From NCBI GenBank assembly GCA_021788365.1, contig JAJYKS010000005.1, positions 14,754-78,753 on the forward strand: DNA of 64,000 nucleotides, in the 5' to 3' direction. The notes beneath the pieces were generated by a model that saw nothing but the letters and a program-made list of their open reading frames with translations, searched no databases and was not told where the DNA came from. Position numbers and translations under genes: made by a program. Origin of the DNA: a bacterium. GTDB taxonomy: Bacteria > Patescibacteriota > Microgenomatia > UBA1400 > UBA12108. Of the stretch, positions 5,600-20,238 are shown piece by piece (positions within the stretch are counted from its first letter, which is position 1; every line of letters starts with the position of its first letter).

Positions 5600-5621
5600 G
5601 TTTCTAGTATAACCCACGGCT

Positions 5622-5723
5622 CGTCGTATTCCCAAGTGAAAAACCGGTCTGTCTGCGACTGGTGTCGCAGCGACCTTGTGCTCGGACCAGTCCTGCGCAA
5701 TATTTTTCTTTGTGAACACGACT
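5622..5723. repeat. Copy 1 of ~100-nt structured intergenic element (candidate ncRNA/cis-RNA)
   Basis: Near-identical to 57202-57303 and homologous to 26949-27078. Contains nested inverted repeats (GGTC..CTGCGAC-tggtg-GTCGCAG..GACC; GGACcaGTCC) enclosed by an outer helix GTCGTATTC/GAACACGAC. Lies 23 nt upstream of the M50 protease start. Confidence 0.75.
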
Positions 5724-5744
5724 TCGCCTCTTCTTTTAGTAGGC

Positions 5745-6922: not shown

Positions 6923-9088
6923 ATGGCTGCCCTGAACTTAACAACACTCCTTGTAACTATTCCCCGCGATACGGAGGTGACGCCGGAGTCGGCCGCTACC
7001 TTCCTCTCGACATTTCCCACCATGCTTACCAAGAGCTGGTTCGACGTGTGGATCAAAGGAGAGCCGCGGCCCACGATCGCACTTGAGGTGGCGGCGACAG
7101 AGCAGCAGATACGATTTCTCGTGACCGTTTCTCCGTGGCTGGTGCAGTTTGTTACGGCCCAAATTAACTCGACTTACCCTCTGGCCATGATCTCACCCAT
7201 CGTTGACCCATTGCCCGCGCTTGCCCCGCACCTCCACGTCGCGGAGTTGCCGCTCTCGCATGCAGGCTTTTATCCCTTGAAGACATGGAGTGACTTTCGC
7301 GACACCGATCCTATGACGGCGTACCTCTCTGTGTTGTCGAAAGCCGAGGCGGGTGAAACCATGTGGGTGCAGTACGCACTTGCTCCGGCAAAGGCTGGCT
7401 GGCAACAGGCAGGCCAGCAGGCAATAGATGCGGGGCGGACAACTGGCTCTCACCAGACCTATATGGCTGGCGGGAAAACGGGATACACTACGCAGCGAGG
7501 GAGCCTCCCCGAGGCGCGGGGGATACAAGAGAAGATCGCCCACGCGGGGTTTGCCGTCACCGTACGTATTGCAGCGAGCCACAAAGCGAGGTTGAAGGAA
7601 CTAGCTGCTGTTTTTGGCGTCTATGGTAGACCGGACGGCAACAGCTTTACCATGCACACGTCGCTCCTCTCACCAAAGGGTTACCAAAAACAACTTGCCG
7701 CGCGTGCCGGGGCTGCTCGCAAAGTGATCAATGTGCCGGAGCTTTCTACCCTGTGGCACTTGCCATCTGACAAAGTAAAGATACCTGGGATCATCTGGGG
7801 TCAGAATGTCTTTTCCGAGCCGCCGGACAATCTACCTACGGCAGAGGGAAAAACCGATGAGGAAAAGGCGAGCATTAACTTTTTTGGCAGAGCCATTTTT
7901 AAGAACCGCGACCTCATTTTTGGGATAAAAGACGTAGACCGGCGGCGACATCTGTGGGCAATAGGTAAAACGGGCACTGGTAAAAGTACCCTCATCGCCA
8001 ACATGGCCATCGACGATCTTAAAAAAGGTCGAGGTGTGGCGATTATTGACCCGCACGGTGATCTATCGGATATTATCCTCAATTATGTGCCTGCCTCACG
8101 TATCAACGATGTCATTTACTTTAATCCGATAGACCATGACCGGCCCGTGCGTCTCAACGTGCTCGAAGTAAAAGACCCGGCGCAGCGGGAACTTGTCGTG
8201 TCTGGTATTGTCGCCATTTTCAACAAGTTATATGGTCACAGTTGGGGGCCGCGACTTGAATATATTCTTCGGAATACGCTTCTGGCTCTGTCAGAGCTAC
8301 CCGGGATGACCTTGGTAGACGTGCCGAGAATACTCACCGACCGGCAGTTTCGTGCCCAGGCAGTCGCGCAGCTAAAAGATCCCATTATCCAGCGATATTT
8401 CACCAATGAATTTGATAAGATGCCGGACAAACTTTTACAGGAATCTATCAGTCCAATCCTGAATAAAGTAGGCCAGTTTGTGTCCTCGCCTATGATCCGC
8501 GCCATTATCGAACGACCGGCCAGCTCTATCGATATGGAAGCCATCATGAACGAGGGAAAGATACTTATAGCCAATTTATCGCAGGGAAAATTGGGAGAGG
8601 ACAACGCGGCTCTCATTGGCGCCATGCTTATCACCAAGTTCCAGCTCGCGGCGATGAATCGGGTCGACCTGCAGGAAGCGTCCCGCCGCGATTTTTATCT
8701 TTATGTAGACGAGTTCCAGAATTTTGCCACGTCTAGCTTTATCAAGATTTTGTCGGAAGCGCGCAAGTACAAACTAAACCTTATGATGGCAAATCAATAT
8801 ATGGCACAGATACCACTCGAGGTGCAGAAAGCCATCCTTGGGAATGCGGGATCAATTGTCAGCTTTACCATAGGGGCAGAGGATGCTCGAATCATTATGA
8901 AAGAGTTTGGCGACGTGTTTACCGACAAGGATCTTGTAAACTTAGAGAATTACCAAATTGCTGTGCGACTCATGGTGGACGCAAAGAGCGGCAGGGCGTT
9001 CCTCGCGCGCACGTTGCCACTACCCTCGTCGTCGAATCAGAATAAAGATAAGGTAATACGCGTAAGTAGGGAGAGGTGGGGGCGCTAG
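6923..9088 (+). CDS. VirD4/TraD/TrwB-like (FtsK-HerA superfamily) P-loop ATPase, T4SS coupling-protein-like, no N-terminal TM
   Basis: Walker A GKTGTGKST followed by IIDPHGD, Walker B YLYVDEFQNF, C-terminal ARKYKLNLMMANQ typical of the TraG/TraD/VirD4 family. ~300-aa unrelated soluble N-terminal region. Confidence 0.6.
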   Translation: MAALNLTTLLVTIPRDTEVTPESAATFLSTFPTMLTKSWFDVWIKGEPRPTIALEVAATEQQIRFLVTVSPWLVQFVTAQINSTYPLAMISPIVDPLPALAPHLHVAELPLSHAGFYPLKTWSDFRDTDPMTAYLSVLSKAEAGETMWVQYALAPAKAGWQQAGQQAIDAGRTTGSHQTYMAGGKTGYTTQRGSLPEARGIQEKIAHAGFAVTVRIAASHKARLKELAAVFGVYGRPDGNSFTMHTSLLSPKGYQKQLAARAGAARKVINVPELSTLWHLPSDKVKIPGIIWGQNVFSEPPDNLPTAEGKTDEEKASINFFGRAIFKNRDLIFGIKDVDRRRHLWAIGKTGTGKSTLIANMAIDDLKKGRGVAIIDPHGDLSDIILNYVPASRINDVIYFNPIDHDRPVRLNVLEVKDPAQRELVVSGIVAIFNKLYGHSWGPRLEYILRNTLLALSELPGMTLVDVPRILTDRQFRAQAVAQLKDPIIQRYFTNEFDKMPDKLLQESISPILNKVGQFVSSPMIRAIIERPASSIDMEAIMNEGKILIANLSQGKLGEDNAALIGAMLITKFQLAAMNRVDLQEASRRDFYLYVDEFQNFATSSFIKILSEARKYKLNLMMANQYMAQIPLEVQKAILGNAGSIVSFTIGAEDARIIMKEFGDVFTDKDLVNLENYQIAVRLMVDAKSGRAFLARTLPLPSSSNQNKDKVIRVSRERWGR

Positions 9089-9318
9089 GCCAGCGTCGCG
9101 GTTGGCGGATGCGTTGTGTGATGCTCTAGGTGGTTTACGCGCTGATTGAGGTTGCCTTGGTTTTTGGTAACAACTTCGAGTAGCTTATCGAGTTTTGCGT
9201 TAATTTTTGTATCCATTGTTTTCAGGTCGCTACGAATGCCAACGACATCCTCTTGGAGCTGACTCACCTTGGTGTTTAGAATATCTGTATTGGAAACGAT
9301 CTTCTTTTTTGCCGGCAT
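9085..9318 (-). CDS. Small coiled-coil hypothetical protein
   Basis: 77-aa ORF, heptad-like hydrophilic sequence, co-directional with fmt. No recognisable domain. Confidence 0.3.
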   Translation of the reverse strand: MPAKKKIVSNTDILNTKVSQLQEDVVGIRSDLKTMDTKINAKLDKLLEVVTKNQGNLNQRVNHLEHHTTHPPTATLA

Positions 9319-9326
9319 AGCTGCAG

Positions 9327-10298
9327 TTAATCATTTAGATAATACTTTGTAAAGTCACCCCAAGTGATGGGTTTGGGTTTACCAGCGATAAGGATCTCGG
9401 GAGTTGCATACCTGGTATGTGATCTGGTGAGGACGAGGGTGAGGCGAAGGTTGCCTTTTTTGGTCGGGCAAATGGTCCAGACACCCGGCCACGGGGTTAG
9501 TGCCCGGCAGAGCCGGGCAATTTCCAATGACCAATTTTCAATTTTCAAGTGTTGTGTTTTTATTTTTGCTAATCGCAATTTGAGGAGCAGGTTGGTGGTT
9601 TCATCAGGGGCAATGGGTTGATTCGCAAGGAGTTTTTGGACAACGGGCCATTCAACATAACCGGAGTCGCGGGTAAAGCGTTTTGCATAGACTAGGACCT
9701 CTTTTTCCTGGTGTTGTGACTGCGCGCTGGGAACGGGTTTACCGCTAATGTAGTCTGCTACGAGCCCTGCACCTCGAGCAAAAAGCTCGGTGAGGAGGTC
9801 TGGAGCTCCTATTCCTGGTGGGGTGGGTATCTTTTCTTGCGCGACGACTTTACCGGTATCCACGCCTTCGTCGATCGTGAAAATGCTGACGCCAGTTGTT
9901 GTGTCGCCTAACGCAAGCGCATAGGGAACAGGTGCTACGCCGCGGTATTGGGGGAGGAGTGAGGGGTGAATGTTGAGAATACTTTTTAGGAATGTTTTGA
10001 TTAGCGGGGAGGGAAGAATGTGACCAAAAGAGGCGACCAAACCATACTCGTAATGATATGATTTGAGCATATCAATAAAATTGCTCATTTCTTCACTTTT
10101 TTCTGGATAATATATTACTTTTATATTTTGCGTGATGGCTAGTTTTTCAACGGGGTTGGGCTCTCGCTTTTGCTCGCGACCTTTGGGTTTCCCTCGGTCG
10201 GTCACCACAGCTAAAATCGCGATGTTTTGATCATCGATTATCCGCTGCAGCACTATCGCAGAATACTGATCGACGCCAAAAAAGATAAGAGAATGCAT
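9327..10298 (-). CDS. fmt: Methionyl-tRNA formyltransferase
   Basis: N-terminal formyltransferase core with NIHPSLLPQYRGVAPV (SLLP..RG motif), ~320 aa with a C-terminal Fmt-type domain. Contains an in-frame (AATTTTC)n stretch at 9533-9550. Confidence 0.85.
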   Translation of the reverse strand: MHSLIFFGVDQYSAIVLQRIIDDQNIAILAVVTDRGKPKGREQKREPNPVEKLAITQNIKVIYYPEKSEEMSNFIDMLKSYHYEYGLVASFGHILPSPLIKTFLKSILNIHPSLLPQYRGVAPVPYALALGDTTTGVSIFTIDEGVDTGKVVAQEKIPTPPGIGAPDLLTELFARGAGLVADYISGKPVPSAQSQHQEKEVLVYAKRFTRDSGYVEWPVVQKLLANQPIAPDETTNLLLKLRLAKIKTQHLKIENWSLEIARLCRALTPWPGVWTICPTKKGNLRLTLVLTRSHTRYATPEILIAGKPKPITWGDFTKYYLND

Positions 10299-10322
10299 AC
10301 TGTGATTATACTAGCCCGAGGA

Positions 10323-10517
10323 TTATTTACCCAATGTTTTCCAGTTCAAGTAAATAGGGGTGAGCGGGGTGCCGTCCTCGTTGACGATCAGCGTGCGACC
10401 GTCCGCGGTTTCGATCTCTTCTAACCCATATAGTTTGAGGAGCTCTGATAGCGTCAGCTCACTTTCGTCGCGACTATCTCCAGTTGCTTCATGATCGGTT
10501 GGGAGAGTTTCGAACAT
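10323..10517 (-). CDS. Small acidic hypothetical protein
   Basis: 64-aa ORF, co-directional with its neighbours. No domain recognised. Confidence 0.3.
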   Translation of the reverse strand: MFETLPTDHEATGDSRDESELTLSELLKLYGLEEIETADGRTLIVNEDGTPLTPIYLNWKTLGK

Positions 10518-10535
10518 ATTACTTGTATTTATATC

Positions 10536-11306
10536 TTATGTAGGATTATCGTGCATGATAGCGGAGTAGAAGAAGACTATTGGGTCTTTTTCTGCCTCTG
10601 GCCTTTGTATGACAAGTCCAAATTTAATTTCATCAAACTCTCGTAGTGAGGTTGCAACAAAATCTTCGTTTGCTGTGAAAACTACTGTTGTATCTGGGGG
10701 ATATGGAGGATGACGATAGGCGGCGATGGGATTTGGACCCTCTGTTTTCACTTGCGCAAGATTGCTATTGAATACCTCCTCATCTGCGACAATGTACACC
10801 TTATTGTTGCTTAGGTCTGTGGCTTGTGCTGGTATAACGCTAAGTAAATGACCGTTGTCATGTTCGTTGGCGATGGCAACACACACGCCTTCTGCGTCGT
10901 CGCGAAGTGACTCGATAACTTCGGTCATGGAATGGACAACCTTTGTTTCTCGACCGGCCATGCTGCTTATACTGCTAATAACAGCAAGCGCTTCGTTTGG
11001 ATTAACTGCCGATGTGTTCCAATCTGGGGGAAGGAAGTCTGGGCCGACAACAAGACTTGCGGCTAAGCCGACACACCCACCGACGACATCGTCCGTCGTA
11101 CTAACTTGTTCAACGTCTGAGGTATATCCTCGGAGATAGTTGTATAACGACGAGGAATTTTGATCGTTGCTTGGTCTACAAAGGTCGGGAATTATGTCTT
11201 TGATATGTTGGCCTTGTGCAAGTCCGAGAGTTGCGGCATCTTTTAGGTGTTGGGCGGCATGATGCGATGCAAAATGGTTTTTTTGATCGCTTTTAGCTTC
11301 TAACAT
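10536..11306 (-). CDS. Hypothetical protein (256 aa)
   Basis: Long clean ORF inside the minus-strand hypothetical block. No motif recognised. Confidence 0.5.
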   Translation of the reverse strand: MLEAKSDQKNHFASHHAAQHLKDAATLGLAQGQHIKDIIPDLCRPSNDQNSSSLYNYLRGYTSDVEQVSTTDDVVGGCVGLAASLVVGPDFLPPDWNTSAVNPNEALAVISSISSMAGRETKVVHSMTEVIESLRDDAEGVCVAIANEHDNGHLLSVIPAQATDLSNNKVYIVADEEVFNSNLAQVKTEGPNPIAAYRHPPYPPDTTVVFTANEDFVATSLREFDEIKFGLVIQRPEAEKDPIVFFYSAIMHDNPT

Positions 11307-11316
11307 AAATGCGACA

Positions 11317-11685
11317 TTATGTAGCTGGAATTAGATTTATTAGACCGATGATATCGTCATCTTCGAGCACTTGGAATTCGTTGCTTTTTCTGCCGTCTGG
11401 TCCAATATCTTCGGAAATGCCACTGGCCGCTATCCCGGCTGCGGCAAGGACTGCAAGGATATCTGTATCTCTGGACTCTGTGGTGAGGCGTATCGACACT
11501 AATTCACAGGAGCTCGCTGCGGCGTTGGGCACGTCGTATACTGCTGCAACGGCTTTGTGTGCAGCCTCCATGTCTACTGGTGGGAACCCTAGTGGGGCAG
11601 GAAGGAGGGGTGTCTCTCCAGGCGGGATGGGATCTGATAGTACAAATTCGCGACTTAGATGATAGTTCATAAGTCTATTATACAT
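11317..11685 (-). CDS. Hypothetical protein (122 aa)
   Basis: Chosen over the fully overlapping plus-strand ORF 11309-11662, whose translation is S/R-rich and low-complexity. Confidence 0.35.
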   Translation of the reverse strand: MYNRLMNYHLSREFVLSDPIPPGETPLLPAPLGFPPVDMEAAHKAVAAVYDVPNAAASSCELVSIRLTTESRDTDILAVLAAAGIAASGISEDIGPDGRKSNEFQVLEDDDIIGLINLIPAT

Positions 11686-11778
11686 CCTATAGCAAGTTTC
11701 TATGGATAATCGGTGATACAGTTTATATGAGATTGTCTATCTTGAACGAATGTTGGGTTTGGGCTTTTAATATTTTTC

Positions 11779-12288
11779 ATGGGGGTGGTGAGAGGCAACG
11801 AAATTCTCAAAGGAACTGCCATCTCTGACCCCCTAGAAGGTTTGGCTTTTCATTTGCTTAATGGGCTTTTTGACGGTGTGGTTATTGGCCACGAGACGGA
11901 ACGAGCTGATGGGCCGGGAGGACTGACGATACCCGATCTCACCTTTAGGGAACACGTTGAAGATGGGAATAGAGTATTAATCGAGGTGACAAAATCCTGG
12001 CTTCTGCCAGACAAAGACCCAAAGGAGGATCAGCGTCGCAAACTGCAGAGCTATGTTAAAGAAACCCCCGGGACGGCCGCGCTCGTATTATATCGACAAA
12101 ATTTTGGGACGGACGACGCCCAGCTAGACTCCCTGAAGCTCGTGGATATGCTCGCGATGGGGGAAATAGATATGATGGAGGCGCAGGCACGAGCTAACCA
12201 GATTGCGCTCGAAAATAGCGCTATGACGCCGCAGAGTGGGGACGACCACATCTGGAATGATATGGTGATGGCGCTTCTTGGCGGGTAG
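11779..12288 (+). CDS. Hypothetical protein (169 aa)
   Basis: Only plus-strand gene inside the otherwise minus-strand block. Followed 1 nt later by the convergent 148-aa gene. Confidence 0.45.
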   Translation: MGVVRGNEILKGTAISDPLEGLAFHLLNGLFDGVVIGHETERADGPGGLTIPDLTFREHVEDGNRVLIEVTKSWLLPDKDPKEDQRRKLQSYVKETPGTAALVLYRQNFGTDDAQLDSLKLVDMLAMGEIDMMEAQARANQIALENSAMTPQSGDDHIWNDMVMALLGG

Positions 12289-12735
12289 TTATTTGGTGAG
12301 GATGTCGCCGAGCATGGTGACGATGTTTATGGATTGATCTCCGGCGTTTATTGCTTCGTTTATCGATAAAGTCTCTTGCATATCAAGGGCCTCTCGGTGA
12401 TGTCTTCGACTATTTTCAGCTACTTCTTCTGGAGATGGGAAGGGTATGCCAAGTACGGCAAATTCGGCACGAGCGATTGGCTCGATGATTGCGTTTACAA
12501 TAAGGTCTAATCCTGGGTGATTTTCTATTGCTCTTGTGATCTGATCCATTACGAGGAGTGGTGGGTAGATGATTTTAGCTTCGGTAAGACCATGGCCGGT
12601 TAGCTCGGGCACAACAACGTGGTCGTGTTCCAGCGCTCTTCCGGTGTACCTAGCCCTAACAAAATCGCTCTCTGCTGCCTGTGCAGAAAGGCTTTGAGCT
12701 AGTGTCGTGGCTTTTTCATGAACGGCGGTATTCAT
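12289..12735 (-). CDS. Hypothetical protein (148 aa)
   Basis: Clean ORF, 9 nt downstream of the 557-aa gene. Confidence 0.45.
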   Translation of the reverse strand: MNTAVHEKATTLAQSLSAQAAESDFVRARYTGRALEHDHVVVPELTGHGLTEAKIIYPPLLVMDQITRAIENHPGLDLIVNAIIEPIARAEFAVLGIPFPSPEEVAENSRRHHREALDMQETLSINEAINAGDQSINIVTMLGDILTK

Positions 12736-12744
12736 AGTACCTGA

Positions 12745-14418
12745 TTAACCCATTGTCATAGCGTCACGCTTTATCCCGAGACCTTGGTCTTGGGCGGCTT
12801 GCATTTTTGTTTTTAACACTTCTAGTGAGTCCATTTTTCTTCCGAGGCTATTGATCACTCGTTTGTGAGCGCCGATTTTTGCCACTAGTTCTCTTTGTGA
12901 TGGGTTGTTAAGTGCTTTATTTTCGTCATATGAGGAACTTGCGGGATCAAAGGCAAATGGATTAATACCAACAGATTCGGCAAGTGCTAGACGACGCAGT
13001 AAACTTTCCATTTCACGGCGTTGAATGGTCCTAATCTCATTTTGTTGGTCGGCAATTTTTTCGAATGCTGGGCTGTAATCGAGGGGACCGGCTCCGCGGT
13101 TGTAGCGTTTCAATGGGTAAGCAGTGGCGCCAAGTGGAAGGAGGTCTATAACTTTGTTGGGACGAATAGGATCTTTATATGCTGGCTCGGAGGAAAAAAC
13201 GGCCGTATCGGCGTGGGATTTTGCAGTATCTGCGGATTTGGCGAGTATGCCAAGGTTACGCAAAAATTGAATGGTGAGTCCCGGGTCACGAACAGCAATC
13301 GTAATGGGATCGTTTGGCGCTTGTAGTTGACGCAATACAATTATACCACCCAGGCCATTTGCGGCCCACCAGTCGATGTTGGTTTCTATAAAACCAGGAC
13401 CTTTTCTACGTAGGTGGTCGATGTATTTGAGTGTGCCATCACTCATTAACGTGTCAGATGCACTTGTGGGAGCGACGGTGAGGGTGGAGAGCTGAATTTT
13501 TCGCGTATCTTCGCGGTCGTCAGCATTTATTATTCGCTTTACAACTAGCTCGCGGGGGGTGACATACCAGTACGTGCTAGCTAAATCTTTTCTTTCCTCG
13601 GGGGTCATCATGATGTGGGCAGTGACCCAGTCGGTGATGTATGCTTTGTCGGCTGGAGTCGCGGCAAGCCTTGCCAGGGAGGCGGTGATTTCGGGACGGT
13701 TTTGCGTCCACATATTACCTATCTGGGTGAGGGCGACGTCACTTGCTCGCCCGAATACATACCGGTACAACTCGCGCGCGATTACTTCTGGTGGAACCCT
13801 TCCAACCTTTAGCATGAGATCGTTTGCAACTTTGATTTCGTCTTCGGTAGGGCTGCCTCCATGCGAGCTGTCTTGTTCGCCCATATAAAGCTGCATTGCC
13901 TTTGTCCTGGCTTGTTGATCGAGGAGTGCGGCTGTTTGTTCTTCACCAACCAATCCATCTGACGAGAGTGACATATATTTGGCTAATATGCCTCGGTATG
14001 TTATGGCGATATGGTCGGGATTGGGTAAGTCTGGTTCGAGACCTCGAATGTCAAGGCGACGTTTTACCTTATGAAAACCTTTTAGAACCCCTTCCTGAAA
14101 GCTATCTGCGACTGGAGGGATATGAATTTCCTTCTTCTTAATGATTGGTATTTCTATTGGTAGGGGGATTCTTGTGTCGTGGGTAAGTGCTTTAGCGTAG
14201 AGAATGTGAGATATTGCGGTGGAAGTTGTTACCTTGTTTGCTCCAGGAGCCGGTAGCTGAGGGGTCTTTTGGTCTGGTGCTATAGTGGCACCCCACATCC
14301 GTGCGATGATCGCGAAATCGTCCTCTTCAACCTGTACGGGTGTATGTCCTTGCGGTGCACCTTCTGGGGATCTACTGCCGCCCCAAGCTAATCCGATATC
14401 TTGCCAAATATCTGCCAT
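12745..14418 (-). CDS. Hypothetical protein (557 aa), no P-loop
   Basis: Large clean ORF. No Walker A, TM or nuclease motifs recognised by eye. Confidence 0.55.
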   Translation of the reverse strand: MADIWQDIGLAWGGSRSPEGAPQGHTPVQVEEDDFAIIARMWGATIAPDQKTPQLPAPGANKVTTSTAISHILYAKALTHDTRIPLPIEIPIIKKKEIHIPPVADSFQEGVLKGFHKVKRRLDIRGLEPDLPNPDHIAITYRGILAKYMSLSSDGLVGEEQTAALLDQQARTKAMQLYMGEQDSSHGGSPTEDEIKVANDLMLKVGRVPPEVIARELYRYVFGRASDVALTQIGNMWTQNRPEITASLARLAATPADKAYITDWVTAHIMMTPEERKDLASTYWYVTPRELVVKRIINADDREDTRKIQLSTLTVAPTSASDTLMSDGTLKYIDHLRRKGPGFIETNIDWWAANGLGGIIVLRQLQAPNDPITIAVRDPGLTIQFLRNLGILAKSADTAKSHADTAVFSSEPAYKDPIRPNKVIDLLPLGATAYPLKRYNRGAGPLDYSPAFEKIADQQNEIRTIQRREMESLLRRLALAESVGINPFAFDPASSSYDENKALNNPSQRELVAKIGAHKRVINSLGRKMDSLEVLKTKMQAAQDQGLGIKRDAMTMG

Positions 14419-14436
14419 ATATATTCTTTCGAGAAA

Positions 14437-14718
14437 TCAATTCCCCCAAAGGGCGTTTAAGAAAAGCGCTTGGGCAGCAGCTTGGTCTGCTGGAAGTTTG
14501 AGGTTGGCGAGTTTTTCTTCATTCCATGCGACTGAGACTTCAAGCATAATGGGGGATATGTCAAGCAACTCTGACAACGTGGGTTGTACGGGAGTGGCCG
14601 GTTCTATGGTCCATGCTTTTGATAGATCTTCGAACGGGTTGGAGGTCATGTTATTTCCCCCCTCCCTCTTTGTTTCCAGAGAGTGCAGTGGTGACCATAG
14701 AAAGTGCTGTCTGGGCAA
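14437..14718 (-). CDS. Hypothetical protein (93 aa)
   Basis: ORF overlapping the upstream gene by 68 nt; the true start of one of the two is probably internal. Confidence 0.35.
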   Translation of the reverse strand: MPRQHFLWSPLHSLETKREGGNNMTSNPFEDLSKAWTIEPATPVQPTLSELLDISPIMLEVSVAWNEEKLANLKLPADQAAAQALFLNALWGN

Positions 14719-15127
14719 GTGCGTTGAGGACCTCTTTTCCCTTTTTAGCCCCGCGATCTACGACGTCTTCGCGATCCGCTTTCATAAAGTTAGGGATATG
14801 ATCTTCGTCGATATTAGTAAAGATATCTTGAAACGGTTCTGTTAAGAAGGCTACAGCTTGGGATTTGAAGGAATTCTCTTTCTCTTTTGCTGCAGCTTCG
14901 TGGGCAGCGGCTTGATCCATGACGCCTTTTTGGTAAGCAGCGGTTGCAGCTTGTACGCTGGCGCCATGTATTGCGAGCCGTGCCAGATCTTCTGGAATGG
15001 AGGGTGGAGCTACACGTTTTGGATCGATAACTTCTCCTTGAGCCGCTTGTGCCCCTTTTGAGCTTGGAGACCATGCGGCGCTAATTTCATCGAACAGTGA
15101 GGTTTCGGTAGCATTGCCTTTTGTCAT
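14651..15127 (-). CDS. Ala-rich hypothetical protein (158 aa)
   Basis: Clean ORF with an A/E/K-rich helical-looking sequence. Confidence 0.45.
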   Translation of the reverse strand: MTKGNATETSLFDEISAAWSPSSKGAQAAQGEVIDPKRVAPPSIPEDLARLAIHGASVQAATAAYQKGVMDQAAAHEAAAKEKENSFKSQAVAFLTEPFQDIFTNIDEDHIPNFMKADREDVVDRGAKKGKEVLNALAQTALSMVTTALSGNKEGGGK

Positions 15128-15326
15128 ATATTCCTTATTTTTATTATGTACGTAATGTGTATTTATTTTACCTTATAGGTCAAGATATGAGAAAGTGACC
15201 CAAAAACGCGCTACGTGTTCAGCCAAAATGGCTGAATTTTGCACGTAGCGCGTGTGGGGGTAAACGAACATGTTCCATGGCCGCCTTGAAGGGCAGGTTT
15301 GGTCGTGTGGGCGGCCATGGTTTTCA

Positions 15327-15995
15327 TTATGGGGCCTTCGTGAGTGCGCTCAGGTGCACACAGACACCAGTGGTGGTCAGACCTCGATTTCCCGCGATAT
15401 TGTGCGATGGCCAGGTTTGCGTGATGGTGACGCTCGTCCCGTAGGGGATCGAGTTGGGATTGGCCAAAGGGTCCGTGTCTGTGCAGATACCTCCCGTTGG
15501 TGTTCGGGCCGTGGCACCGTCGGTCATGCTGACCGTGTAATTTCCGGTAAGGCCGGTAGATGGGGCGGCGAGGGACTGGCCAGTCGTTGTGGGAGCGGGG
15601 GTGATTGTGGGGATGATGGGTCCGGGGGCCGCTTGGGTTGATTGGGGCACACCGATTCCAGGAGGAGGGACGGGAGTAATGCTATCCATTGAATCGCGTA
15701 GCGCACCAAACAGGCTGTTGCCATACTGTGGGACTAATCTGATTCCTATGGGAACTAGGATCAGGAGAACTGCCACAATCAAGGCGCCCCAGAAGGCGAC
15801 CTTTGCGGCCACTTTTGGTCCCATTTTCAGTAGCCCGCCGGCCGTGCGTAACGCCCATCGGAGCACCAGGAAGCCGACCACCGCTGCGATTATGAACCAG
15901 GAGTTGCTTGCGAGGGCCATTAGCCACTGCAGCGCATTTCCTATCCCACCAGCAAAGGTGGTAAAGTAACTTACGATTGTTTGAATAATAGGCAT
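15327..15995 (-). CDS. Membrane protein with N-terminal TM hairpins and Pro/Thr-rich extracellular C-terminal region
   Basis: Three predicted TM helices in the first 90 aa, then a P/T/G-rich region. VirB2/VirB3-like topology is possible but unproven. Confidence 0.5.
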   Translation of the reverse strand: MPIIQTIVSYFTTFAGGIGNALQWLMALASNSWFIIAAVVGFLVLRWALRTAGGLLKMGPKVAAKVAFWGALIVAVLLILVPIGIRLVPQYGNSLFGALRDSMDSITPVPPPGIGVPQSTQAAPGPIIPTITPAPTTTGQSLAAPSTGLTGNYTVSMTDGATARTPTGGICTDTDPLANPNSIPYGTSVTITQTWPSHNIAGNRGLTTTGVCVHLSALTKAP

Positions 15996-16145
15996 ATTTG
16001 CCTCCGTTTGAATTCGCGATTACCATTCGGCGTTGCCGTTTCTGGTTCTCCCTAGGCTCGCGTCTGCCTATACTGCAGGGCCGTCCTTGCTTGGTTGTGT
16101 GCCAAGCGTTAATCACCTCCTCTCATAGGTGAAGGTTATACATCC

Positions 16146-16439
16146 CTACGGTGATGGGATGGGCGATGGGGTAATGCTCTCGACTTGGAGTTGTAGCTCC
16201 CAGACCCTTTCGAGCCTGTATTCCTTGCCTTCATACACTACAATCGTGCCGTAGTTTTCGTTTTTTACTGGCAAGGAATCGTAACTGGAGTACTCCAGGT
16301 ACCATGTGGTTTTGGCGCTGTCTATGTAGACAGTCCAGGGAGTGGTTCCTTTTTCCAGCGTTACGGGAGCTAAAACTTTTGGTGCGAGTGCGTTACATCC
16401 CATGCATAGAATTAGGGATACTAGTAGTATCTTTTTCAT
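16146..16439 (-). CDS. Small secreted lipoprotein-like protein
   Basis: Signal peptide MKKILLVSLILCMGC with lipobox-like cysteines, 97 aa, immediately downstream of the hydrolase gene. Confidence 0.55.
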   Translation of the reverse strand: MKKILLVSLILCMGCNALAPKVLAPVTLEKGTTPWTVYIDSAKTTWYLEYSSYDSLPVKNENYGTIVVYEGKEYRLERVWELQLQVESITPSPIPSP

Positions 16440-16451
16440 CTATAAAATCCT

Positions 16452-19061
16452 TTATGGAGTGAGGTTGGGTATGGGGATGTTATTCCAGGGTGGAACTTGA
16501 AGACTTCGTACTGCTTGGTTGCAGAAGGAATCTCCTGGTTGCCTCCACGCTGAAATGGTTGGCGAACTTTGACCATTACTGGCTTTGAGTTCGTTATACG
16601 CGGGAACCGCAAGGCTCGCGTATTTCTGCGTTTCTGCAGGCCAACTGGACATAGGTCCGGAGACTCCTCCCATACCACCGTTGTAGCAGCCAAACGACCT
16701 TTGTAGGTCGCCTGGGAACGCGGCAAAGCACTGGTTGAGCCAGTCGTACGCTTTGCTAGCGTTTTGTTCAGGATCTTGCATGGTGGCAGTGGTCTGTTGG
16801 TCAGATGGCCAATGGGATGGCATGACCTGAAACAGGCCCTGTGCACCACTAACCGACTCAGCTGTCGGACGGCCGCACGACTCGAAAGTCATAACGACGG
16901 CGCCAACCAGCGGGTCGGTGGTAGCCCCTTTGCCGTACTGGACTGACCATTTGTTGATGTCAGGCAGCCAGTACTGGACGGTGGGTGGGAGCCCTTGGCC
17001 TTGGATAGCCAAAGGGTTGGGGGTAGGAGGGGGCGGCGTAGTCGCACGAGCCATGGTGAAGCCGACGCTTGCAAAAAGCGCCAGGACGAGGCTCGTAGCC
17101 ATAATCCCGTGCAGGATTTGCCCAAAGCAGCCACGCTGCTTTTTTTCCACAACCCAGTATCCACCCATGTCGCGCGTTTGTTTCACGTAAAACCATCGGT
17201 TTAGGAGGCCGTTGGCGACGAAAAATAGCGCGACAATGGTCATGGCCATATGGCTAATCGTTGACTCACCGCCCATCCAGGCTGCAAATCCATATATTCC
17301 TATATGGAAAAGCTCCGGCGTGACGAGAAATGCGAATGCCATGATGCCCAGCCACCAGCGTAATCCCCATTGTATGGACTCGCTCGCGACGCGCCACCAC
17401 ATGGGTAGCGAATCGGTAACCCACATCGTACCAAGCGCGATCCATCCCGGCCGAAGCCAAAGGATGAGAAGAAACACTAGCACCAACATGGCTATGGAAG
17501 CCCAGGTGGCGAATGTCCCATTGCTTGGGAGAATAGGTGCTTGTGGAGCGGGTGTGGCTACCACGGGTGTTCCCTGAGCGGGGACAGGAGTGGGAGCAAC
17601 GTGTGTCGGAGCGGCGATCATGCGCGTAACCCATAGGGTTAGCAAGTCGCCGTCGACCTTCCAGTGGAGCGTAACGGGTGTGGAGTACGTGTTACAAAAA
17701 CGCACGTCTTCGCCGTTCTTCTGGGTGGGATCCGCAACGTCATTTACCGTATTTACGGCAAACGAGAATTGTGGATTAACTCCCGGGATCTGTGTGTGAT
17801 GTCGGGTGGTCGACGTAAAGTCAACTTTGACGCCTGCGCCGTCGAGGGTCTCTGAGACCATCGAGGAAATATCGCAAGCGCCGGCACCTAACCGCACGTC
17901 ACCCACTTCGGCGACTCCCATACCGGCATCTGCCGTATAGGGGCCGAAGAAGCCATTTAACCACCAACACCCTGGTTGGATATCCAGCTGGCCGGAGAAA
18001 CTTGACGGTACCGTGAGGTACGCATCTTTTGTTTTCTTGCCAGGTGATACTGCCCAGAGTGTCGTTAACATGTTTTCTCTATACGTCGAGTAACTTCCGT
18101 AATTGAGTCGCATGTTATACGTGTTGGAAACCAACACATCTTCTCCTGGAGCGGGAGTCGAAGTAGGGGTTGGGCTGGTAACCGACGAATTAGGCTTTTG
18201 ACCTGAATCTACGGTGACCACCCTTTGGCCTGCCACATATTGGTATACGCGGGTGTAGACCTCCCATACGACGTTTGCCCAGTCCTGTGGCGAAGTTGGT
18301 AATGACGAGATGTTGGGGGTTTGGGTTGCTGCTGGTGCCGCACTTGGGGATGGGGGAGCAGAGGAGACGGAACTTGCTGGGGGAGGATTCTGACCGAGAA
18401 TGTCACGGGGATTTTCCCAGATTAGCATCCAGTCAGAAAGAACTTCTGCCTGCAAGTACGGATCTCTGGTTGGCCGCGGTTGCGCGAGGTGCTGCTCGAT
18501 GGCAACCGGGTCGTTGTTCGCGTCGAACAAACCCACGTGAACGTGGGGCTCCGTCCACCGAACACTATTGCCCTTAATAGGCGACATGTATCCGAGTGGC
18601 TGTCCTTGCTGTATCCATTCTCCCAAGTGAATTTCGCTAAATCTCGTCGTATCGAGATGGACGTAAATAAAGAACACCGTCCGACCACGATAGGTTGATT
18701 TAACGATAACTGCGTCACCCCAAGGAGCAGAGAGCCAACTGGGCCAGCTGCCGACGTGAACGATCTCTCCAGGGAGGATCGGATACACCGGTGTATCTGC
18801 TGGCGCGCAGATGTCTATACCCTCATGGCCAGAGCCGTCTCCTACGTTGTTCCCGGGTTTATTGACCTGGGGACTAAACTCGATCACACACGTGACGTGT
18901 GTATCGCTGGAGACGGGCCACTGGGGGGTGGGATCGCTTGTCGGCTGTTGAGCCTGCACTCGTGCCATAGGCACGAGAGATACTAGAAGCGCGATGAGGA
19001 GAATCCCCATCGCGAGCCGTGCTTGCGCGCGAGTACGCATGGGTTTTCTCCTTTCTCGCAA
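16452..19061 (-). CDS. Cell-wall hydrolase fusion: signal peptide + M23 (LytM) peptidase + polytopic TM region + C-terminal lytic transglycosylase (SLT) domain
   Basis: M23 motifs GHEGIDICAPADTPVYP...HLGEW...HVHVGL; Pro-rich linker; ~6 TM helices; SLT motif ESCGRPTAESVSGAQGLFQVMPSHW. SD AAGGAGA 8 nt upstream of the ATG at 19061. Confidence 0.8.
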   Translation of the reverse strand: MRERRKPMRTRAQARLAMGILLIALLVSLVPMARVQAQQPTSDPTPQWPVSSDTHVTCVIEFSPQVNKPGNNVGDGSGHEGIDICAPADTPVYPILPGEIVHVGSWPSWLSAPWGDAVIVKSTYRGRTVFFIYVHLDTTRFSEIHLGEWIQQGQPLGYMSPIKGNSVRWTEPHVHVGLFDANNDPVAIEQHLAQPRPTRDPYLQAEVLSDWMLIWENPRDILGQNPPPASSVSSAPPSPSAAPAATQTPNISSLPTSPQDWANVVWEVYTRVYQYVAGQRVVTVDSGQKPNSSVTSPTPTSTPAPGEDVLVSNTYNMRLNYGSYSTYRENMLTTLWAVSPGKKTKDAYLTVPSSFSGQLDIQPGCWWLNGFFGPYTADAGMGVAEVGDVRLGAGACDISSMVSETLDGAGVKVDFTSTTRHHTQIPGVNPQFSFAVNTVNDVADPTQKNGEDVRFCNTYSTPVTLHWKVDGDLLTLWVTRMIAAPTHVAPTPVPAQGTPVVATPAPQAPILPSNGTFATWASIAMLVLVFLLILWLRPGWIALGTMWVTDSLPMWWRVASESIQWGLRWWLGIMAFAFLVTPELFHIGIYGFAAWMGGESTISHMAMTIVALFFVANGLLNRWFYVKQTRDMGGYWVVEKKQRGCFGQILHGIMATSLVLALFASVGFTMARATTPPPPTPNPLAIQGQGLPPTVQYWLPDINKWSVQYGKGATTDPLVGAVVMTFESCGRPTAESVSGAQGLFQVMPSHWPSDQQTTATMQDPEQNASKAYDWLNQCFAAFPGDLQRSFGCYNGGMGGVSGPMSSWPAETQKYASLAVPAYNELKASNGQSSPTISAWRQPGDSFCNQAVRSLQVPPWNNIPIPNLTP

Positions 19062-19407
19062 AAATTTGGAACCAACTCAGGGGTAGCGACTATGTCGCGA
19101 CGCCGGTGTTGGCTCCAATTCGTACGAGGTGAGCGCTTCTTGTATTTGTAACAGAAATAAGTTTATAGGACTTTTATACCTATTATTGTTCGTTTACCCT
19201 TGTTAAGGTGCGCTGCTTCCACAACCTCAACCCCGCAATGGGGCAGGCTGACAAAGCAGACACTTGGGCAGGGCGTAGCTATGATGTAGCTGACATCGCG
19301 CAAAGCGACAGGCTACATGTGTAGCTAGTGCGTCATATTATACCCCTGATGGTCAAGTTATGGGCTGAATTTATGTGCTTTAAGTTGTAATAGTCTATTG
19401 AAAGCGC

Positions 19408-19704
19408 CTACGATTTGATTAAAAGCTGTTCGTCCACGTATGTAATTGCTGGAGTAGCCAAGAGTTCGCCAAGTTGGTTGGCCATATTTTCGAGCATGTG
19501 ACTTTGTATCGCGGTTGCGACACCGGCTCCGTCAACTGCACCCATGGGCGCAGCAAGTGGTCCGCCACCTAATCCAACGGTAAAACCTACGGCGGCTACC
19601 GCTAGGCGTGCAATACCAACGTTGCGCTGTAGCTCTTCAATTTGCTCGAGCGTAGCTTCTATTGCTGCTTCACGTGCTGGGTTGATCAGTACTATTTCTG
19701 GCAT
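19408..19704 (-). CDS. Gly/Ala-rich hypothetical protein (98 aa)
   Basis: Clean ORF with a G/A-rich central segment. Confidence 0.4.
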   Translation of the reverse strand: MPEIVLINPAREAAIEATLEQIEELQRNVGIARLAVAAVGFTVGLGGGPLAAPMGAVDGAGVATAIQSHMLENMANQLGELLATPAITYVDEQLLIKS

Positions 19705-19725
19705 GGTAATAGTATATCTTGTCGG

Positions 19726-19932
19726 TCAAGCATCGATAGTTTCATCGAACTGAATAATATCTAGCAACGAAAGTTCGTTCAGTGGGATGCCGGTGCGTTG
19801 CGAAATAAGCGTGGCCTTGAGCATGAGCGCGTCTAACCCGTTTGCGTCGACGCGCATGACTTCTTTGCCCGCAATCTCTTCGACGGTAGTGTTCTTTAGT
19901 TTTTCTGTGAGAACTACCTCAATTTTGACCAT
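19726..19932 (-). CDS. Small hypothetical protein (~68 aa from internal Met)
   Basis: ORF 19726-20034; start placed at MVKIEVVLTEK..., because the upstream part is C/R-rich read-through. Confidence 0.35.
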   Translation of the reverse strand: MVKIEVVLTEKLKNTTVEEIAGKEVMRVDANGLDALMLKATLISQRTGIPLNELSLLDIIQFDETIDA

Positions 19933-20238
19933 GTATGTATTGTATACGCTATGACAAGTGCCCTGCTTGTTGCGCCTTGGGCGTATACTACAGGTCGTGA
20001 GTGGAAATAAAAAGGAGTTGACGTTTACGGACATGGTAAACCCCTATTGTACCGAAGGCGGGGTGGGGTGGAGCGTAGCACGGATCGTCGAAGCGGGTCT
20101 ATTAACATTTTTGTTTATTCTGGGACTCGGACAAGTGGGGATAGAGAACCCCTTGCCTTATGTGGGCGGCGCGATATTTTTTCTTTCAACGATAGTCGTC
20201 CAGACTCGGCGTTTTCCCACACTGCATTAGTGACTACG

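What the first reader, a model, noticed from the sequence alone, without database searches (positions are those of the whole stretch)
9085..19061. ~10-kb minus-strand block of 12 uncharacterised proteins headed by an M23+SLT cell-wall hydrolase, next to a VirD4-like ATPase
From 19061 down to 9085 nearly every gene is on the minus strand and none matches a family I recognise apart from the first. The ORFs are 869 aa (hydrolase), then 97 aa (lipoprotein), 222 (polytopic membrane/Pro-Thr-rich), 158, 93, 557, 148, 122, 256, 64 and 77 aa, with one 169-aa plus-strand exception. Polytopic PG-hydrolase fusions, small lipoproteins and small membrane proteins are typical components of monoderm conjugation/T4SS-like or surface-attachment machines, and a VirD4/TraD-like coupling ATPase sits just upstream (6923-9088). 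No VirB4-like ATPase, relaxase, integrase, terminase or capsid gene is evident. The region is not an obvious conjugative element or prophage; it could be a lineage-specific envelope or host-interaction system. Hypothetical-protein density of this kind is where novel systems in CPR genomes tend to be.
Basis: inference. Interest (0 to 1): 0.55.

Follow-up and report, generated by a model that had tools for sequence, protein, structure and literature searches.

The report
Swappable cell-wall hydrolase cassette between def and fmt
In this small-genome candidate-phyla-radiation (Microgenomates) bacterium, the interval between the housekeeping genes def and fmt holds a fast-evolving cassette built around a membrane-embedded cell-wall-cutting enzyme and proteins of unknown fold. 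A sister strain of about 92-99% DNA identity carries a completely different cassette at the same place, so this looks like a strain-variable cell-surface locus, not a secretion system or mobile element.

Summary
The listed ORFs are real and code like native genes. Peptide deformylase lies at 20239-20790, so the block is really the def-fmt interval (10506-20240).

Four genes form a conserved core:
- an M23 + 4-TM + SLT hydrolase
- a TM/Pro-Thr/SH3b protein (222 aa)
- a ~150-aa protein
- a ~540-aa cytoplasmic protein

This core recurs in Microgenomates relatives. In some it sits between def and fmt; in Gottesmanbacteria it sits elsewhere with no ATPase nearby. The 557-aa family is rare (33 clusters among 1.84 billion proteins) and matches no Pfam family. 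Its confident AF2 model has no significant fold match in the solved-structure or viral libraries.

Near-conspecific genomes (flanks 92-99% nt) replace the whole 9.7-kb interval with a non-homologous cassette of weakly M23-like and membrane proteins. Only a promoter and 5' stem-loop are kept.

There is no VirB4, relaxase, integrase, phage gene or flanking repeat. The VirD4-like ATPase is a highly conserved orphan whose linkage to the module is not conserved.

Best reading: a lineage-specific, diversifying, wall-spanning peptidoglycan-cleaving module. Its mechanism is inferred, not shown.

The parts
20239..20790 (-). def (peptide deformylase); conserved right-hand flank of the variable interval
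   Evidence: Pfam Pep_deformylase 1e-35. It is 95.6% aa identical in the sister strain L016. Nucleotide homology stops at 20241, the def stop codon.
19726..20034 (-). 102-aa ORF (possibly 68 aa from an internal ATG); variable small gene
   Evidence: Coding score +0.26/+0.47. No family hit. No counterpart in L016 or L005.
19408..19704 (-). 98-aa ORF with one weak hydrophobic segment; variable small gene
   Evidence: Coding score +0.29. No family hits.
19329..19372 (-). Conserved promoter-like block (…CTTGAC…TATAAT…) that heads the cassette
   Evidence: This is the only similarity inside the replaced interval between the window and the type-B strain: 59 nt at 83% (window 19316-19372, overlapping the start of the stem-loop below). 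The motif TATAAT-N8-12-TAGCTACAC is also found in L005, L008 and L012.
19270..19328 (-). 5'-terminal three-tier stem-loop of the cassette transcript, closed by TAGCTA/TAGCTA
   Evidence: It folds to the same shape in the window, L005, L008 and type-B L016 (-20.6 to -22.1 kcal/mol, z -3.1 to -4.9). The inner stems differ in sequence.
19041..19269 (-). Remainder of a long structured leader, including a hairpin just upstream of the ribosome-binding site
   Evidence: The whole 290-nt leader has MFE -104.2 kcal/mol, z -6.25. The pre-SD hairpin is present in four type-A leaders, with 5 of 20 pairs showing compensatory change. There is no Rfam match.
16452..19061 (-). Core gene 1: bifunctional membrane-embedded peptidoglycan hydrolase. 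Order of parts: signal/anchor, M23 endopeptidase, Pro/Thr-rich linker, central domain, four TM segments, SLT lytic transglycosylase. The likely true start is the ATG at 19040.
   Evidence: Pfam, PHROG endolysin/lytic-tail hits on the two catalytic domains only, LytM PDB hits, motifs and linkers, TM segments. Orthologues occur in L005-L008, L010 and L020.
16146..16439 (-). 97-aa probable lipoprotein or secreted protein; accessory, not found in relatives
   Evidence: N-terminal hydrophobic segment ending …LCMGC. No homologue in the related loci.
15327..15995 (-). Core gene 2: 222-aa membrane protein with N-terminal TM segments, a Pro/Thr linker and a C-terminal SH3b-like domain
   Evidence: TM and linker. 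It is 36-38% identical to orthologues. Two of six family members hit Pfam SH3_3 (best 1e-8). hhalign to the Gottesmanbacteria SH3_3 protein gives probability 98.2%.
14651..15127 (-). Core gene 3: 158-aa acidic soluble protein. It is conserved in position and evolves very fast.
   Evidence: 37% identity to L003 only. A gene of about 150 aa sits at this position in every type-A locus. Homology to the most distant ones is not demonstrable.
14437..14649 (-).
   Evidence: Its ATG overlaps the stop of the 158-aa gene. Coding score +0.30. It carries the same N-terminal …[SK]AW[ST] motif as the 158-aa protein; the same motif recurs at the N-terminus of the 557-aa family.
12745..14418 (-). Core gene 4: 557-aa cytoplasmic protein of a rare Microgenomates-only family. 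It has a disordered N-terminus, an alpha/beta body with a PH-like subdomain, and a C-terminal coiled coil.
   Evidence: 33 clusters among 1.84e9 representatives. No Pfam hit in 28 members except C-terminal Zn-ribbons in about one or two of them. AF2 model pLDDT 80.8, pTM 0.65. No Foldseek hit with E<0.05 in PDB or BFVD; only partial PH-domain matches. No PDB profile hit.
12289..12735 (-). 148-aa acidic soluble protein; accessory
   Evidence: Coding score +0.18. No hits. No homologue in the loci.
11779..12288 (+). 169-aa plus-strand accessory gene
   Evidence: Coding score +0.29. No family hit. By eye it has a PD…E-x-K-like motif (IPDL…IEVTK), which was not tested.
11317..11685 (-). 122-aa acidic accessory protein
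   Evidence: Weak homologue in L003 (29% identity, E about 1e-7).
10536..11306 (-). 256-aa acidic accessory protein; last gene of the variable interval
   Evidence: Coding score +0.13. No family or locus homologue.
10323..10517 (-). 64-aa gene belonging to the conserved left flank (the 64-aa gene and fmt form an operon)
   Evidence: 84% aa identical in type-B strains. Nucleotide homology resumes at 10505.
   Evidence: Pfam Formyl_trans_N 9.7e-34 and Formyl_trans_C. 95.6% identical in L014-L016.
9085..9318 (-). 77-aa basic coiled-coil protein after fmt. It is present in genomes with the type-A cassette and absent in the type-B sister strains.
   Evidence: Only coiled-coil-type weak Pfam hits. 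Window 9088-9336 has no counterpart in L014-L016. Genes at this position in L003, L005 and L008 are not demonstrably homologous.
6923..9088 (+). Neighbouring soluble FtsK/HerA-superfamily ATPase (T4CP/VirD4-like motor with an N-terminal DUF8128 domain). It is probably not part of the module.
   Evidence: Pfam and NCBIfam hits, with the NCBIfam hits all far below their cut-offs. DUF8128. TrwB is the only PDB relative. Best PADLOC hit mad8/HerA, 4e-17. No TM segment. 75-99% identity in relatives. Not linked to the module in L004, L010 or L020.

Best explanation
SHOWN. The def-fmt interval of this Microgenomates (CPR) chromosome is a replacement-type hypervariable locus.
- In this genome it carries a 'type-A' cassette with a four-gene core. 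The core is a bifunctional hydrolase (M23 endopeptidase and SLT lytic transglycosylase joined through a four-helix membrane domain), a membrane-anchored SH3b protein on a Pro/Thr linker, a ~150-aa protein, and a ~540-aa protein with no detectable fold relative.
- A set of genome-specific small acidic proteins accompanies the core.
- A conserved promoter and a structured leader head the cassette.

INFERRED mechanism.
- The hydrolase sits in the membrane with both catalytic domains outside, on Pro/Thr linkers long enough to span the cell's own wall.
- The SH3b protein gives it a grip on peptidoglycan.
- Together they open the sacculus locally: M23 cuts peptide cross-links and SLT cuts glycan strands.
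- The two soluble proteins have no signal peptide, and some family members carry Zn-ribbons. They are proposed to dock on the cytoplasmic face of the four-helix bundle and gate or position the enzyme, in the way FtsEX or SteAB control wall hydrolases.
- The cassette evolves much faster than its flanks and is exchanged wholesale between near-conspecific strains. Its target is therefore most likely something under diversifying selection at the cell surface. The candidates are the contact zone with a partner or host cell wall, or a surface structure that phages exploit. A purely housekeeping wall target is less likely.
For: Composition and motifs:
- Domains, catalytic motifs, TM segments and linkers are documented.
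- SH3b is assigned by family.

Core conserved as a unit in different contexts:
- Between def and fmt in L005-L008 and L012.
- Next to fmt in L003.
- Alone in L010.
- Flanked by HEPN/MNT toxin-antitoxin pairs in Candidatus Gottesmanbacteria, L020/L021.

Fast evolution:
- Against L005/L008, the flanks are MreB 84%, ATPase 75%, Def 61-66%, Wzy 55% and M50 55-60% identical.
- The core is far lower: hydrolase 31-40%, the 222-aa protein 37%, the 557-aa protein 28%, and the 158-aa protein undetectable.

Cassette replacement:
- L014-L018 come from five separate assemblies. The type-B M23-like gene was seen on 10 contigs in all.
- They share 92-99% nt identity in the flanks.
- Homology stops exactly at window 10505 and 20241.
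- The 9.0 kb between encodes 257 (weak M23, E 0.0017), 568 (polytopic), 238, 820, 416 and 133-aa proteins with no similarity to type A.
- Logan contigs of the source sample break at 10454-10483 and at 20383. This fits co-existing variants.

Native origin and shared control:
- Codon usage is native and there are no flanking repeats.
- The promoter and 5' stem-loop are conserved across both cassette types.
- Cytoplasmic location of the 557-aa family is supported by the absence of TM or signal segments and by Zn-ribbon tails in about one or two members.
Against: - No experiment or expression data exists, and every functional step is inference.
- The hydrolase structure could not be modelled (pLDDT 31). 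The topology rests on hydropathy alone.
- No interaction between the soluble proteins and the hydrolase has been tested.
- The ~150-aa gene is conserved in position, but homology across the whole family is unproven.
- The host or partner of this organism is unknown.
- Membrane anchoring could equally mean the enzyme works only on the cell's own wall.
- The type-B cassette's M23 assignment is below the Pfam threshold. My reading of a 3D/DPBB-like domain in its 238-aa protein found no support.
Confidence: 0.45

Rival explanations
1. Housekeeping autolysin module. The four genes remodel only the cell's own sacculus, for growth, septum splitting, or insertion of pili or other trans-wall structures. 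The strain variation is neutral turnover in a permissive intergenic site.
For: - The hydrolase is anchored by four TM segments, so it stays on the producer.
- The locus lies among housekeeping genes including mreB and a Wzy-like/TPR membrane protein.
- Codon usage is native.
- The type-B cassette also starts with a weakly M23-like gene, as if a wall peptidase must sit at this locus.
Against: - Identity is far lower than in the flanks.
- A complete non-homologous replacement between strains of about 95% ANI is unusual for an indispensable housekeeping complex.
- The module moves between genomic contexts and sits next to toxin-antitoxin pairs in Gottesmanbacteria.
- Long Pro/Thr linkers suggest reach beyond the producer's own wall.
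Confidence: 0.25
2. Minimal T4SS-like or DNA/protein translocation machine. The hydrolase would supply VirB1 and VirB6-like functions, and the neighbouring VirD4-like ATPase would be the motor.
For: - The ATPase has TrwB, TraD, CedD and VirD4-like similarities.
- SLT + peptidase hydrolases and polytopic proteins are typical of monoderm T4SS (PMC12102498).
- The type-B module in a Levybacteria genome also lies about 6 kb from a DUF8128 ATPase.
- VirB6 homologues are reported as scarce in Microgenomatia, which the authors suggest reflects extreme sequence divergence (PMC12102498).
Against: - There is no VirB4, and the 721-aa protein is the only large P-loop ORF in the 64 kb.
- No relaxase, VirB3/PrgI, TrsD or pilin hit was found among the block proteins.
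- The ATPase is convergent, separated by fmt, and soluble.
- It is absent near the module in L004, L010 and L020/L021.
- The Patescibacteria T4SS is centred on virB4, often near dnaA, and most T4CP homologues are orphans (PMC12102498).
Confidence: 0.1
3. Contact-dependent or bacteriocin-like antagonism locus. A lysostaphin-type M23 enzyme with SH3b targeting kills competitors, and the small acidic variable proteins serve as immunity or accessory factors.
For: - M23 plus SH3b is the lysostaphin/ALE-1 combination.
- Strain-specific small acidic ORFs follow the core, as in effector-immunity arrays.
- The cassette is replaced between strains.
Against: - The enzyme is membrane-embedded, not secreted.
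- SH3b is on a separate membrane protein.
- No recognisable immunity family or export system is present.
- The accessory proteins lack signal peptides, whereas immunity to a wall hydrolase would have to act outside the membrane.
Confidence: 0.1
4. Remnant of a prophage or other mobile element, such as a tail-lysin or tape-measure-like hydrolase with orphan phage genes, inserted between def and fmt.
For: - The hydrolase domains hit PHROG endolysin, lytic tail protein and tape-measure families.
- The block has a high density of orphan genes.
- The locus is variable.
Against: - PHROG hits are confined to the M23 and SLT domains, and the nine other block proteins scanned have none.
- No relatives were found in IMG/VR contigs, GenBank phages or plasmids.
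- No integrase, terminase, capsid, att-like repeats or adjacent tRNA is present.
- Codon usage is native.
- The core is syntenic across genomes whose flanking proteins are only about 50-85% identical.
Confidence: 0.05

Closest known systems
VirB1-type two-domain wall hydrolases of monoderm conjugation systems (PrgK of pCF10, TraG of pIP501, CwlT of ICEBs1) and the Patescibacteria VirB1 homologues with added Peptidase_M23 domains (PMC12102498)
   Same: Both are membrane-anchored enzymes that combine a lytic transglycosylase with a peptidase to punch a local hole in peptidoglycan. Both are encoded with polytopic and small membrane proteins.
   Different: - Here the peptidase is M23, not CHAP or NlpC/P60.
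- The two domains are separated by a four-TM bundle.
- There is no VirB4, VirB3 or VirB8 set and no relaxase.
- The partners (SH3b protein and the 150- and 540-aa proteins) have no T4SS counterpart.
- The module is not linked to the ATPase outside this clade.
Lysostaphin / ALE-1 / LytM family (M23 endopeptidase targeted by an SH3b domain)
   Same: The M23 zinc-site motifs are intact, and an SH3b-type wall-binding domain is present in the same system.
   Different: - SH3b is on a separate membrane protein.
- The enzyme is polytopic and also carries an SLT domain.
- It is not a secreted bacteriocin or autolysin.
Cytoplasmically controlled wall hydrolase systems (FtsEX-EnvC/PcsB/RipC; SteA-SteB of Corynebacterineae). 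This comparison comes from my own knowledge and was not tested here.
   Same: The concept is shared: extracellular hydrolase activity is governed through a membrane domain by cytoplasmic proteins encoded alongside.
   Different: - There is no ABC ATPase and no FtsX.
- There is no sequence or fold similarity.
- The control step is hypothetical here.
Replacement-type hypervariable surface loci (O-antigen clusters between galF and gnd; pneumococcal cps between dexB and aliA). This comparison comes from my own knowledge.
   Same: Conserved housekeeping flanks hold alternative, mutually non-homologous multi-gene cassettes in strains of one species. There are no integrase or att sites.
   Different: - The cargo is wall hydrolases and membrane or cytoplasmic proteins of unknown fold, not sugar-pathway genes.
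- Only two alternatives have been seen so far.
- A shared promoter and 5' stem-loop is retained.

Membership tests
Type IV secretion system (monoderm MPF-FATA / Patescibacteria type) | VirB4 signature ATPase encoded with the other components | tested here: not met
   The 721-aa protein is the only large Walker-A ORF in the 64 kb, and it classifies as T4CP/HerA-like, not VirB4. In Microgenomatia, virB4 is abundantly found near dnaA/dnaN (PMC12102498).
Type IV secretion system (monoderm MPF-FATA / Patescibacteria type) | Coupling protein (VirD4/T4CP) functionally linked to the cluster | tested here: inconclusive
   Weak TrwB, TraG-D_C and TraD hits, the NCBIfam ones far below their cut-offs. There is no N-terminal TM. 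Linkage to the module is lost in L004, L010 and L020/L021.
Type IV secretion system (monoderm MPF-FATA / Patescibacteria type) | VirB6/PrgH-like polytopic channel protein, VirB3/PrgI, VirB8-like | tested here: inconclusive
   No Pfam or NCBIfam hit for any block protein. The four-TM segment inside the hydrolase could be an analogue, but the structure model failed.
Type IV secretion system (monoderm MPF-FATA / Patescibacteria type) | VirB1-like peptidoglycan hydrolase | tested here: met
   SLT 4.7e-12 and M23 5.9e-11 in the 869-aa protein.
Conjugative or integrative mobile element | Relaxase, integrase/recombinase, flanking direct repeats or tRNA target | tested here: not met
   No such Pfam or NCBIfam hits. 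No significant flanking repeats. The only tRNA is 6 kb outside the interval. Codon usage is native.
Prophage or phage-derived module | Capsid, portal, terminase or tail genes, or relatives in phage genomes | tested here: not met
   PHROG hits fall only on the M23 and SLT domains. There are no IMG/VR loci and no tblastn hits in 50,697 phage records.
Peptidase M23 (LytM/lysostaphin type) | H-x3-D and H-x-H zinc/catalytic motifs | tested here: met
   H79EGID83 and H173VH175. Pfam score is above the gathering threshold. LytM and zoocin PDB hits.
Lysostaphin-type targeted lysins | SH3b targeting domain fused to a secreted catalytic domain | tested here: not met
   SH3b-like domain is on the separate 222-aa membrane protein. 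The hydrolase has four internal TM segments.
Family-1 lytic transglycosylase (SLT) | Catalytic Glu-Ser and downstream GLxQ motif | tested here: met
   FE727S and GLFQVM. Pfam SLT scores 45.9 bits against a cut-off of 21.3.
Replacement-type hypervariable locus | Conserved flanks with non-homologous cassettes in conspecific strains | tested here: met
   Flanks are 92-99% nt identical. The interval 10506-20240 has no similarity to L016 6554-15593 except 59 nt. The type-B cassette was seen in five separate assemblies, with its M23-like gene on 10 contigs.
Replacement-type hypervariable locus | Many alternative cassettes in the population, with recombination in the flanks | not tested
   Only two types were seen.
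Known anti-phage defence systems | Match to a PADLOC model | tested here: not met
   No hits for nine of the block's uncharacterised proteins. Only the ATPase hits mad8/HerA.

The most novel reading that the evidence does not exclude
The def-fmt locus of Levybacteria-like Microgenomates may encode interchangeable 'contact cassettes'. These would be previously undescribed trans-envelope machines that breach a partner cell's wall and set host or partner specificity. Type A would be built on a bifunctional four-TM hydrolase, an SH3b anchor and a 540-aa cytoplasmic protein with no detectable fold relative. All cassette types would be driven from one conserved promoter and a new cis-regulatory leader RNA.
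Probability: 0.2. Interest if true: 0.8.

Novelty: new variant of a known kind. Interest (0 to 1): 0.55.

Why it matters
CPR/Patescibacteria are thought to live attached to other cells. Outside Saccharibacteria, almost nothing is known about the molecules at that interface.

- A locus whose content is swapped between near-identical strains, and which always leads with wall-cutting enzymes, is a concrete candidate for the determinants of partner specificity or phage exposure in Microgenomates.
- It can be tested in existing metagenomes (which cassette type goes with which co-occurring host) and with purified domains.
- It also yields a protein family with a confident model but no fold match in the two structure libraries available here.
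- It yields two candidate regulatory RNA motifs.
- It is a warning that 'VirD4-like' ATPases in these genomes should not be read as markers of a secretion system.

Tried and rejected
Searches that found little or nothing:
- The word-index homology search with the 557-aa protein found nothing, apparently because its 90% cluster is represented by a 55-aa fragment. The exhaustive phmmer search then found 33 clusters.
- The same index search with the hydrolase returned only itself.
- An Fmt query against GTDB species genomes found nothing. The 28-sequence alignment was too divergent to use as a pattern query. A 5-sequence alignment gave 1 GTDB and 3 metagenome loci.
- Flanking direct or inverted repeats that could mark an insertion: only chance-level matches.

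Structure work:
- The hydrolase structure with a 2-sequence MSA failed (pLDDT 31).

Ideas tested and dropped:
- A riboswitch upstream of the hydrolase: no Rfam hit even at E<=1.
- A 3D/DPBB domain in the type-B 238-aa protein, which I read by eye: no Pfam or PDB support, so it was dropped.
- The 77-aa post-fmt proteins of different genomes are not demonstrably homologous.
- The idea that fmt travels with the cassette. The high ATPase identity in L003 covers only the conserved C-terminal 128 residues, so that locus is not necessarily a close relative.
- The record title 'uncultured Pseudomonadales' for L008, taken as a mislabel. Gene content matches the Microgenomates loci, and named relatives are Levybacteria and Gottesmanbacteria.


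Full report
**1. The observation**

The 869-aa product carries Peptidase_M23 (residues 78-180) and SLT (721-801), both above Pfam thresholds. Its catalytic motifs are intact: HEGID, HVH, FES and GLFQVM. Hydropathy shows an N-terminal signal/anchor and four hydrophobic segments between residues 514 and 671. The even number puts both catalytic domains on the same, outer side. Pro/Thr/Ser-rich linkers lie at 216-266 and 479-519.

This is Fmt (Formyl_trans_N, 9.7e-34). Def lies at 20239-20790. The 'block' is therefore the interval between def and fmt, two genes that usually form one operon (from my own knowledge).

All block ORFs have positive in-frame coding scores with the codon preferences of the window's housekeeping genes. 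GC is unremarkable. These are real, native-looking genes.

**2. Family searches**

Apart from the hydrolase, none of the block proteins scanned in each library hits Pfam, PHROGs, NCBIfam or PADLOC. PHROG hits of the hydrolase are confined to its two catalytic domains.

The 557-aa protein belongs to a rare family. An exhaustive phmmer search of 1.84 billion representatives gave 33 clusters, the best at 38% identity. Named members come from Candidatus Gottesmanbacteria. A relative of the alternative cassette is named Candidatus Levybacteria. A member of the ATPase's 90%-identity cluster from relative L005 lies on a 965-kb contig. Together these indicate a Microgenomates (CPR) organism, probably with a small genome.

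An AF2 model built on a 28-sequence alignment is confident (pLDDT 80.8, pTM 0.65). It shows:
- a disordered N-terminus of about 60 residues
- an alpha/beta body
- a beta-rich subdomain
- long C-terminal helices

Foldseek finds nothing below E 0.05 in PDB or in BFVD. There are only partial PH-domain matches, with probability up to 0.9 and TM up to 0.46 on the target. A profile search of PDB sequences is empty. About one or two family members end in zinc ribbons, and none has a signal peptide, so the family is cytoplasmic.

**3. Synteny**

Contigs encoding family members show a conserved four-gene core: M23(+SLT) hydrolase of about 790-870 aa, a TM/SH3b protein of about 200-230 aa, a gene of about 150 aa, and a gene of about 500-560 aa.
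- L005-L007, L008, L011 and L012 are collinear with the window over the whole neighbourhood. The order is MreB, Wzy/TPR, Def, core, Fmt, a small gene, ATPase, L28, a 214-aa protein and the M50 protease.
- L003 has the core next to fmt, with different accessory genes.
- L010 has the core alone.
- L004 has it next to unrelated genes.
- In Gottesmanbacteria (L020/L021) it sits between HEPN/MNT toxin-antitoxin pairs, with no def, fmt or ATPase nearby.

The 222-aa family is SH3b-bearing. Two of six members hit SH3_3 (1e-8), and hhalign to the Gottesmanbacteria protein gives probability 98%.

Several window genes have no detectable counterpart elsewhere: those of 97, 148, 169, 256, 98 and 102 aa. 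The 122-aa gene has one weak counterpart.

Against L005/L008 the flanking proteins are 51-84% identical. The core proteins are only 28-40% identical, and the 158-aa protein is undetectable. The module evolves fast.

**4. Cassette replacement**

Two NCBI MAGs and three other assemblies (L014-L018) are nearly conspecific with the window's genome:
- ATPase 99.4% aa
- MreB 99.7% aa
- Wzy 96% aa
- Def and Fmt 95.6% aa
- flanking DNA 92-99% identical

.

Nucleotide homology stops at window 10505, which is the start of the 64-aa gene, and at 20241, which is the def stop codon. The 9.0 kb between them encodes a different set of proteins:
- a signal-anchored protein with a sub-threshold M23 match (257 aa, E 0.0017)
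- a Pro-rich polytopic membrane protein (568 aa)
- single-pass membrane proteins of 238, 820 and 416 aa
- a soluble 133-aa protein

None resembles any type-A protein.

A collinear five-gene version of this 'type B' set occurs in a Levybacteria MAG in another context.

The only similarity inside the interval is a 59-nt block upstream of the first cassette gene. This block is a promoter-like TATAAT element followed by a stem-loop closed by two TAGCTA hexamers. The stem-loop folds identically in type-A and type-B loci, with different inner-stem sequences.

The full 290-nt type-A leader is strongly structured (z -6.25). It has a second conserved hairpin before the ribosome-binding site. Rfam has no match.

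Logan contigs from the source sample break at 10454-10483 and at 20383, near the homology breakpoints. This fits co-existing variants.

There are no flanking repeats, integrase or adjacent tRNA.

**5. The neighbouring ATPase**

The ATPase has a DUF8128 N-domain and a FtsK/HerA-type motor. Its hits to TrwB, TraD, CedD and VirD4 models are weak, and the NCBIfam ones fall far below their cut-offs. Its best score in any library is to the HerA-like Mad8. It has no TM segment.

It is convergent to the fmt operon. It is extremely conserved. It is not linked to the module outside this clade.

A 2025 survey found 5,713 T4CP homologues in Patescibacteria, of which only 148 are near virB4. That survey places virB4 near dnaA in Microgenomatia (PMC12102498). 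The window holds no other large P-loop ORF. Membership in a T4SS is therefore not supported.

**6. Interpretation**

Shown:
- a Microgenomates-specific four-gene module centred on an intact, membrane-embedded, bifunctional peptidoglycan hydrolase with an SH3b partner
- its residence, in this lineage, in a replacement-type hypervariable locus under a conserved promoter and leader

Inferred:
- the enzyme and the SH3b protein reach through the wall on Pro/Thr linkers and open peptidoglycan locally
- the two cytoplasmic proteins control or position the enzyme through the four-helix bundle
- the target is a surface under diversifying selection (a partner cell wall or a phage-exposed structure)

A housekeeping autolysin role is the main rival. 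Bacteriocin-like, T4SS-like and phage-remnant readings are less likely, for the reasons given under each rival.

**7. Novelty**

The enzymatic domains are ordinary. Several things are not described in anything I could find:
- the fusion architecture
- the partner proteins, one with a confident model and no fold match in the two libraries I could search
- the wholesale cassette exchange between def and fmt
- the shared leader RNA

I rate it a new variant of a known kind, namely a wall-hydrolase envelope module in a replacement locus. There is a modest chance that it is something categorically new.

Noticed in passing
window 5619-5727, 26961-27017, 57199-57307: Three copies (89-93% identical) of a 57-109-nt element. 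Each lies just upstream, on the minus strand, of a minus-strand gene: the M50 protease, EF-P and SHMT. The element contains a hairpin GCG[A/G/C]CTG[G/C]TG[T/C/G]CGC with compensatory changes between copies. It is also present in relative L014. There is no Rfam match. It is a candidate shared promoter or 5'-leader motif.
   Followed up: partly
window 1229-4986: A second strain-variable segment. It holds a PPDK_N-like 661-aa gene, a 257-aa ORF, tRNA-Trp (3813-3884) and a 250-aa HTH protein. In the near-conspecific L014 it is replaced by other genes, with only about 245 nt of 71% similarity.
   Followed up: no
window 19041-19330 (-): The 290-nt leader of the hydrolase gene is unusually structured (MFE -104 kcal/mol, z -6.25). 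It has a 5' TAGCTA-closed stem-loop shared by both cassette types, and a pre-SD hairpin followed by a U-run, which may be an attenuator. No Rfam family matches.
   Followed up: partly
window 14651-15127, 14437-14649, 12745-14418; L004, L010, L020 downstream genes: Two short linear motifs recur. First, an N-terminal [FL]xx[IL][SA]xAW[GSTN] motif occurs in the 158-aa protein, the 70-aa ORF and, twice, the 557-aa protein (W42 is invariant in the 9- and 5-sequence family alignments). Second, D[VL]PPFL repeats occur at the C-termini of the fifth gene in distant loci, with an [IV]PxxF motif in the 158-aa family. These may be docking peptides.
   Followed up: partly
window 15198-15261: A 20-nt inverted repeat (85% complementary, 24-nt loop) lies in the 199-nt spacer between the 222-aa and 158-aa genes. 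It may be an internal terminator or processing site.
   Followed up: no
window 38636-40231: A 531-aa protein combines an MtrA-like domain, a thymidylate-synthase domain and a PterinBD-DUF4346 domain. This is an unusual fusion.
   Followed up: no
window 9085-9318: The 77-aa coiled-coil gene between fmt and the ATPase is missing from the type-B sister strains. A small gene sits at this position in all type-A loci, but the sequences are not demonstrably homologous.
   Followed up: partly
L008 (CAZSVV010000008.1): The GTDB/ENA record is titled 'uncultured Pseudomonadales bacterium'. Its gene order and proteins match the Microgenomates loci (MreB 84% and ATPase 75% identical to the window). The label is probably wrong.
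   Followed up: no
window 11779-12288 (+): The lone plus-strand 169-aa gene has, by eye, a PD-(D/E)xK-like motif (TIPDL…LIEVTK). No library supports this.
   Followed up: no
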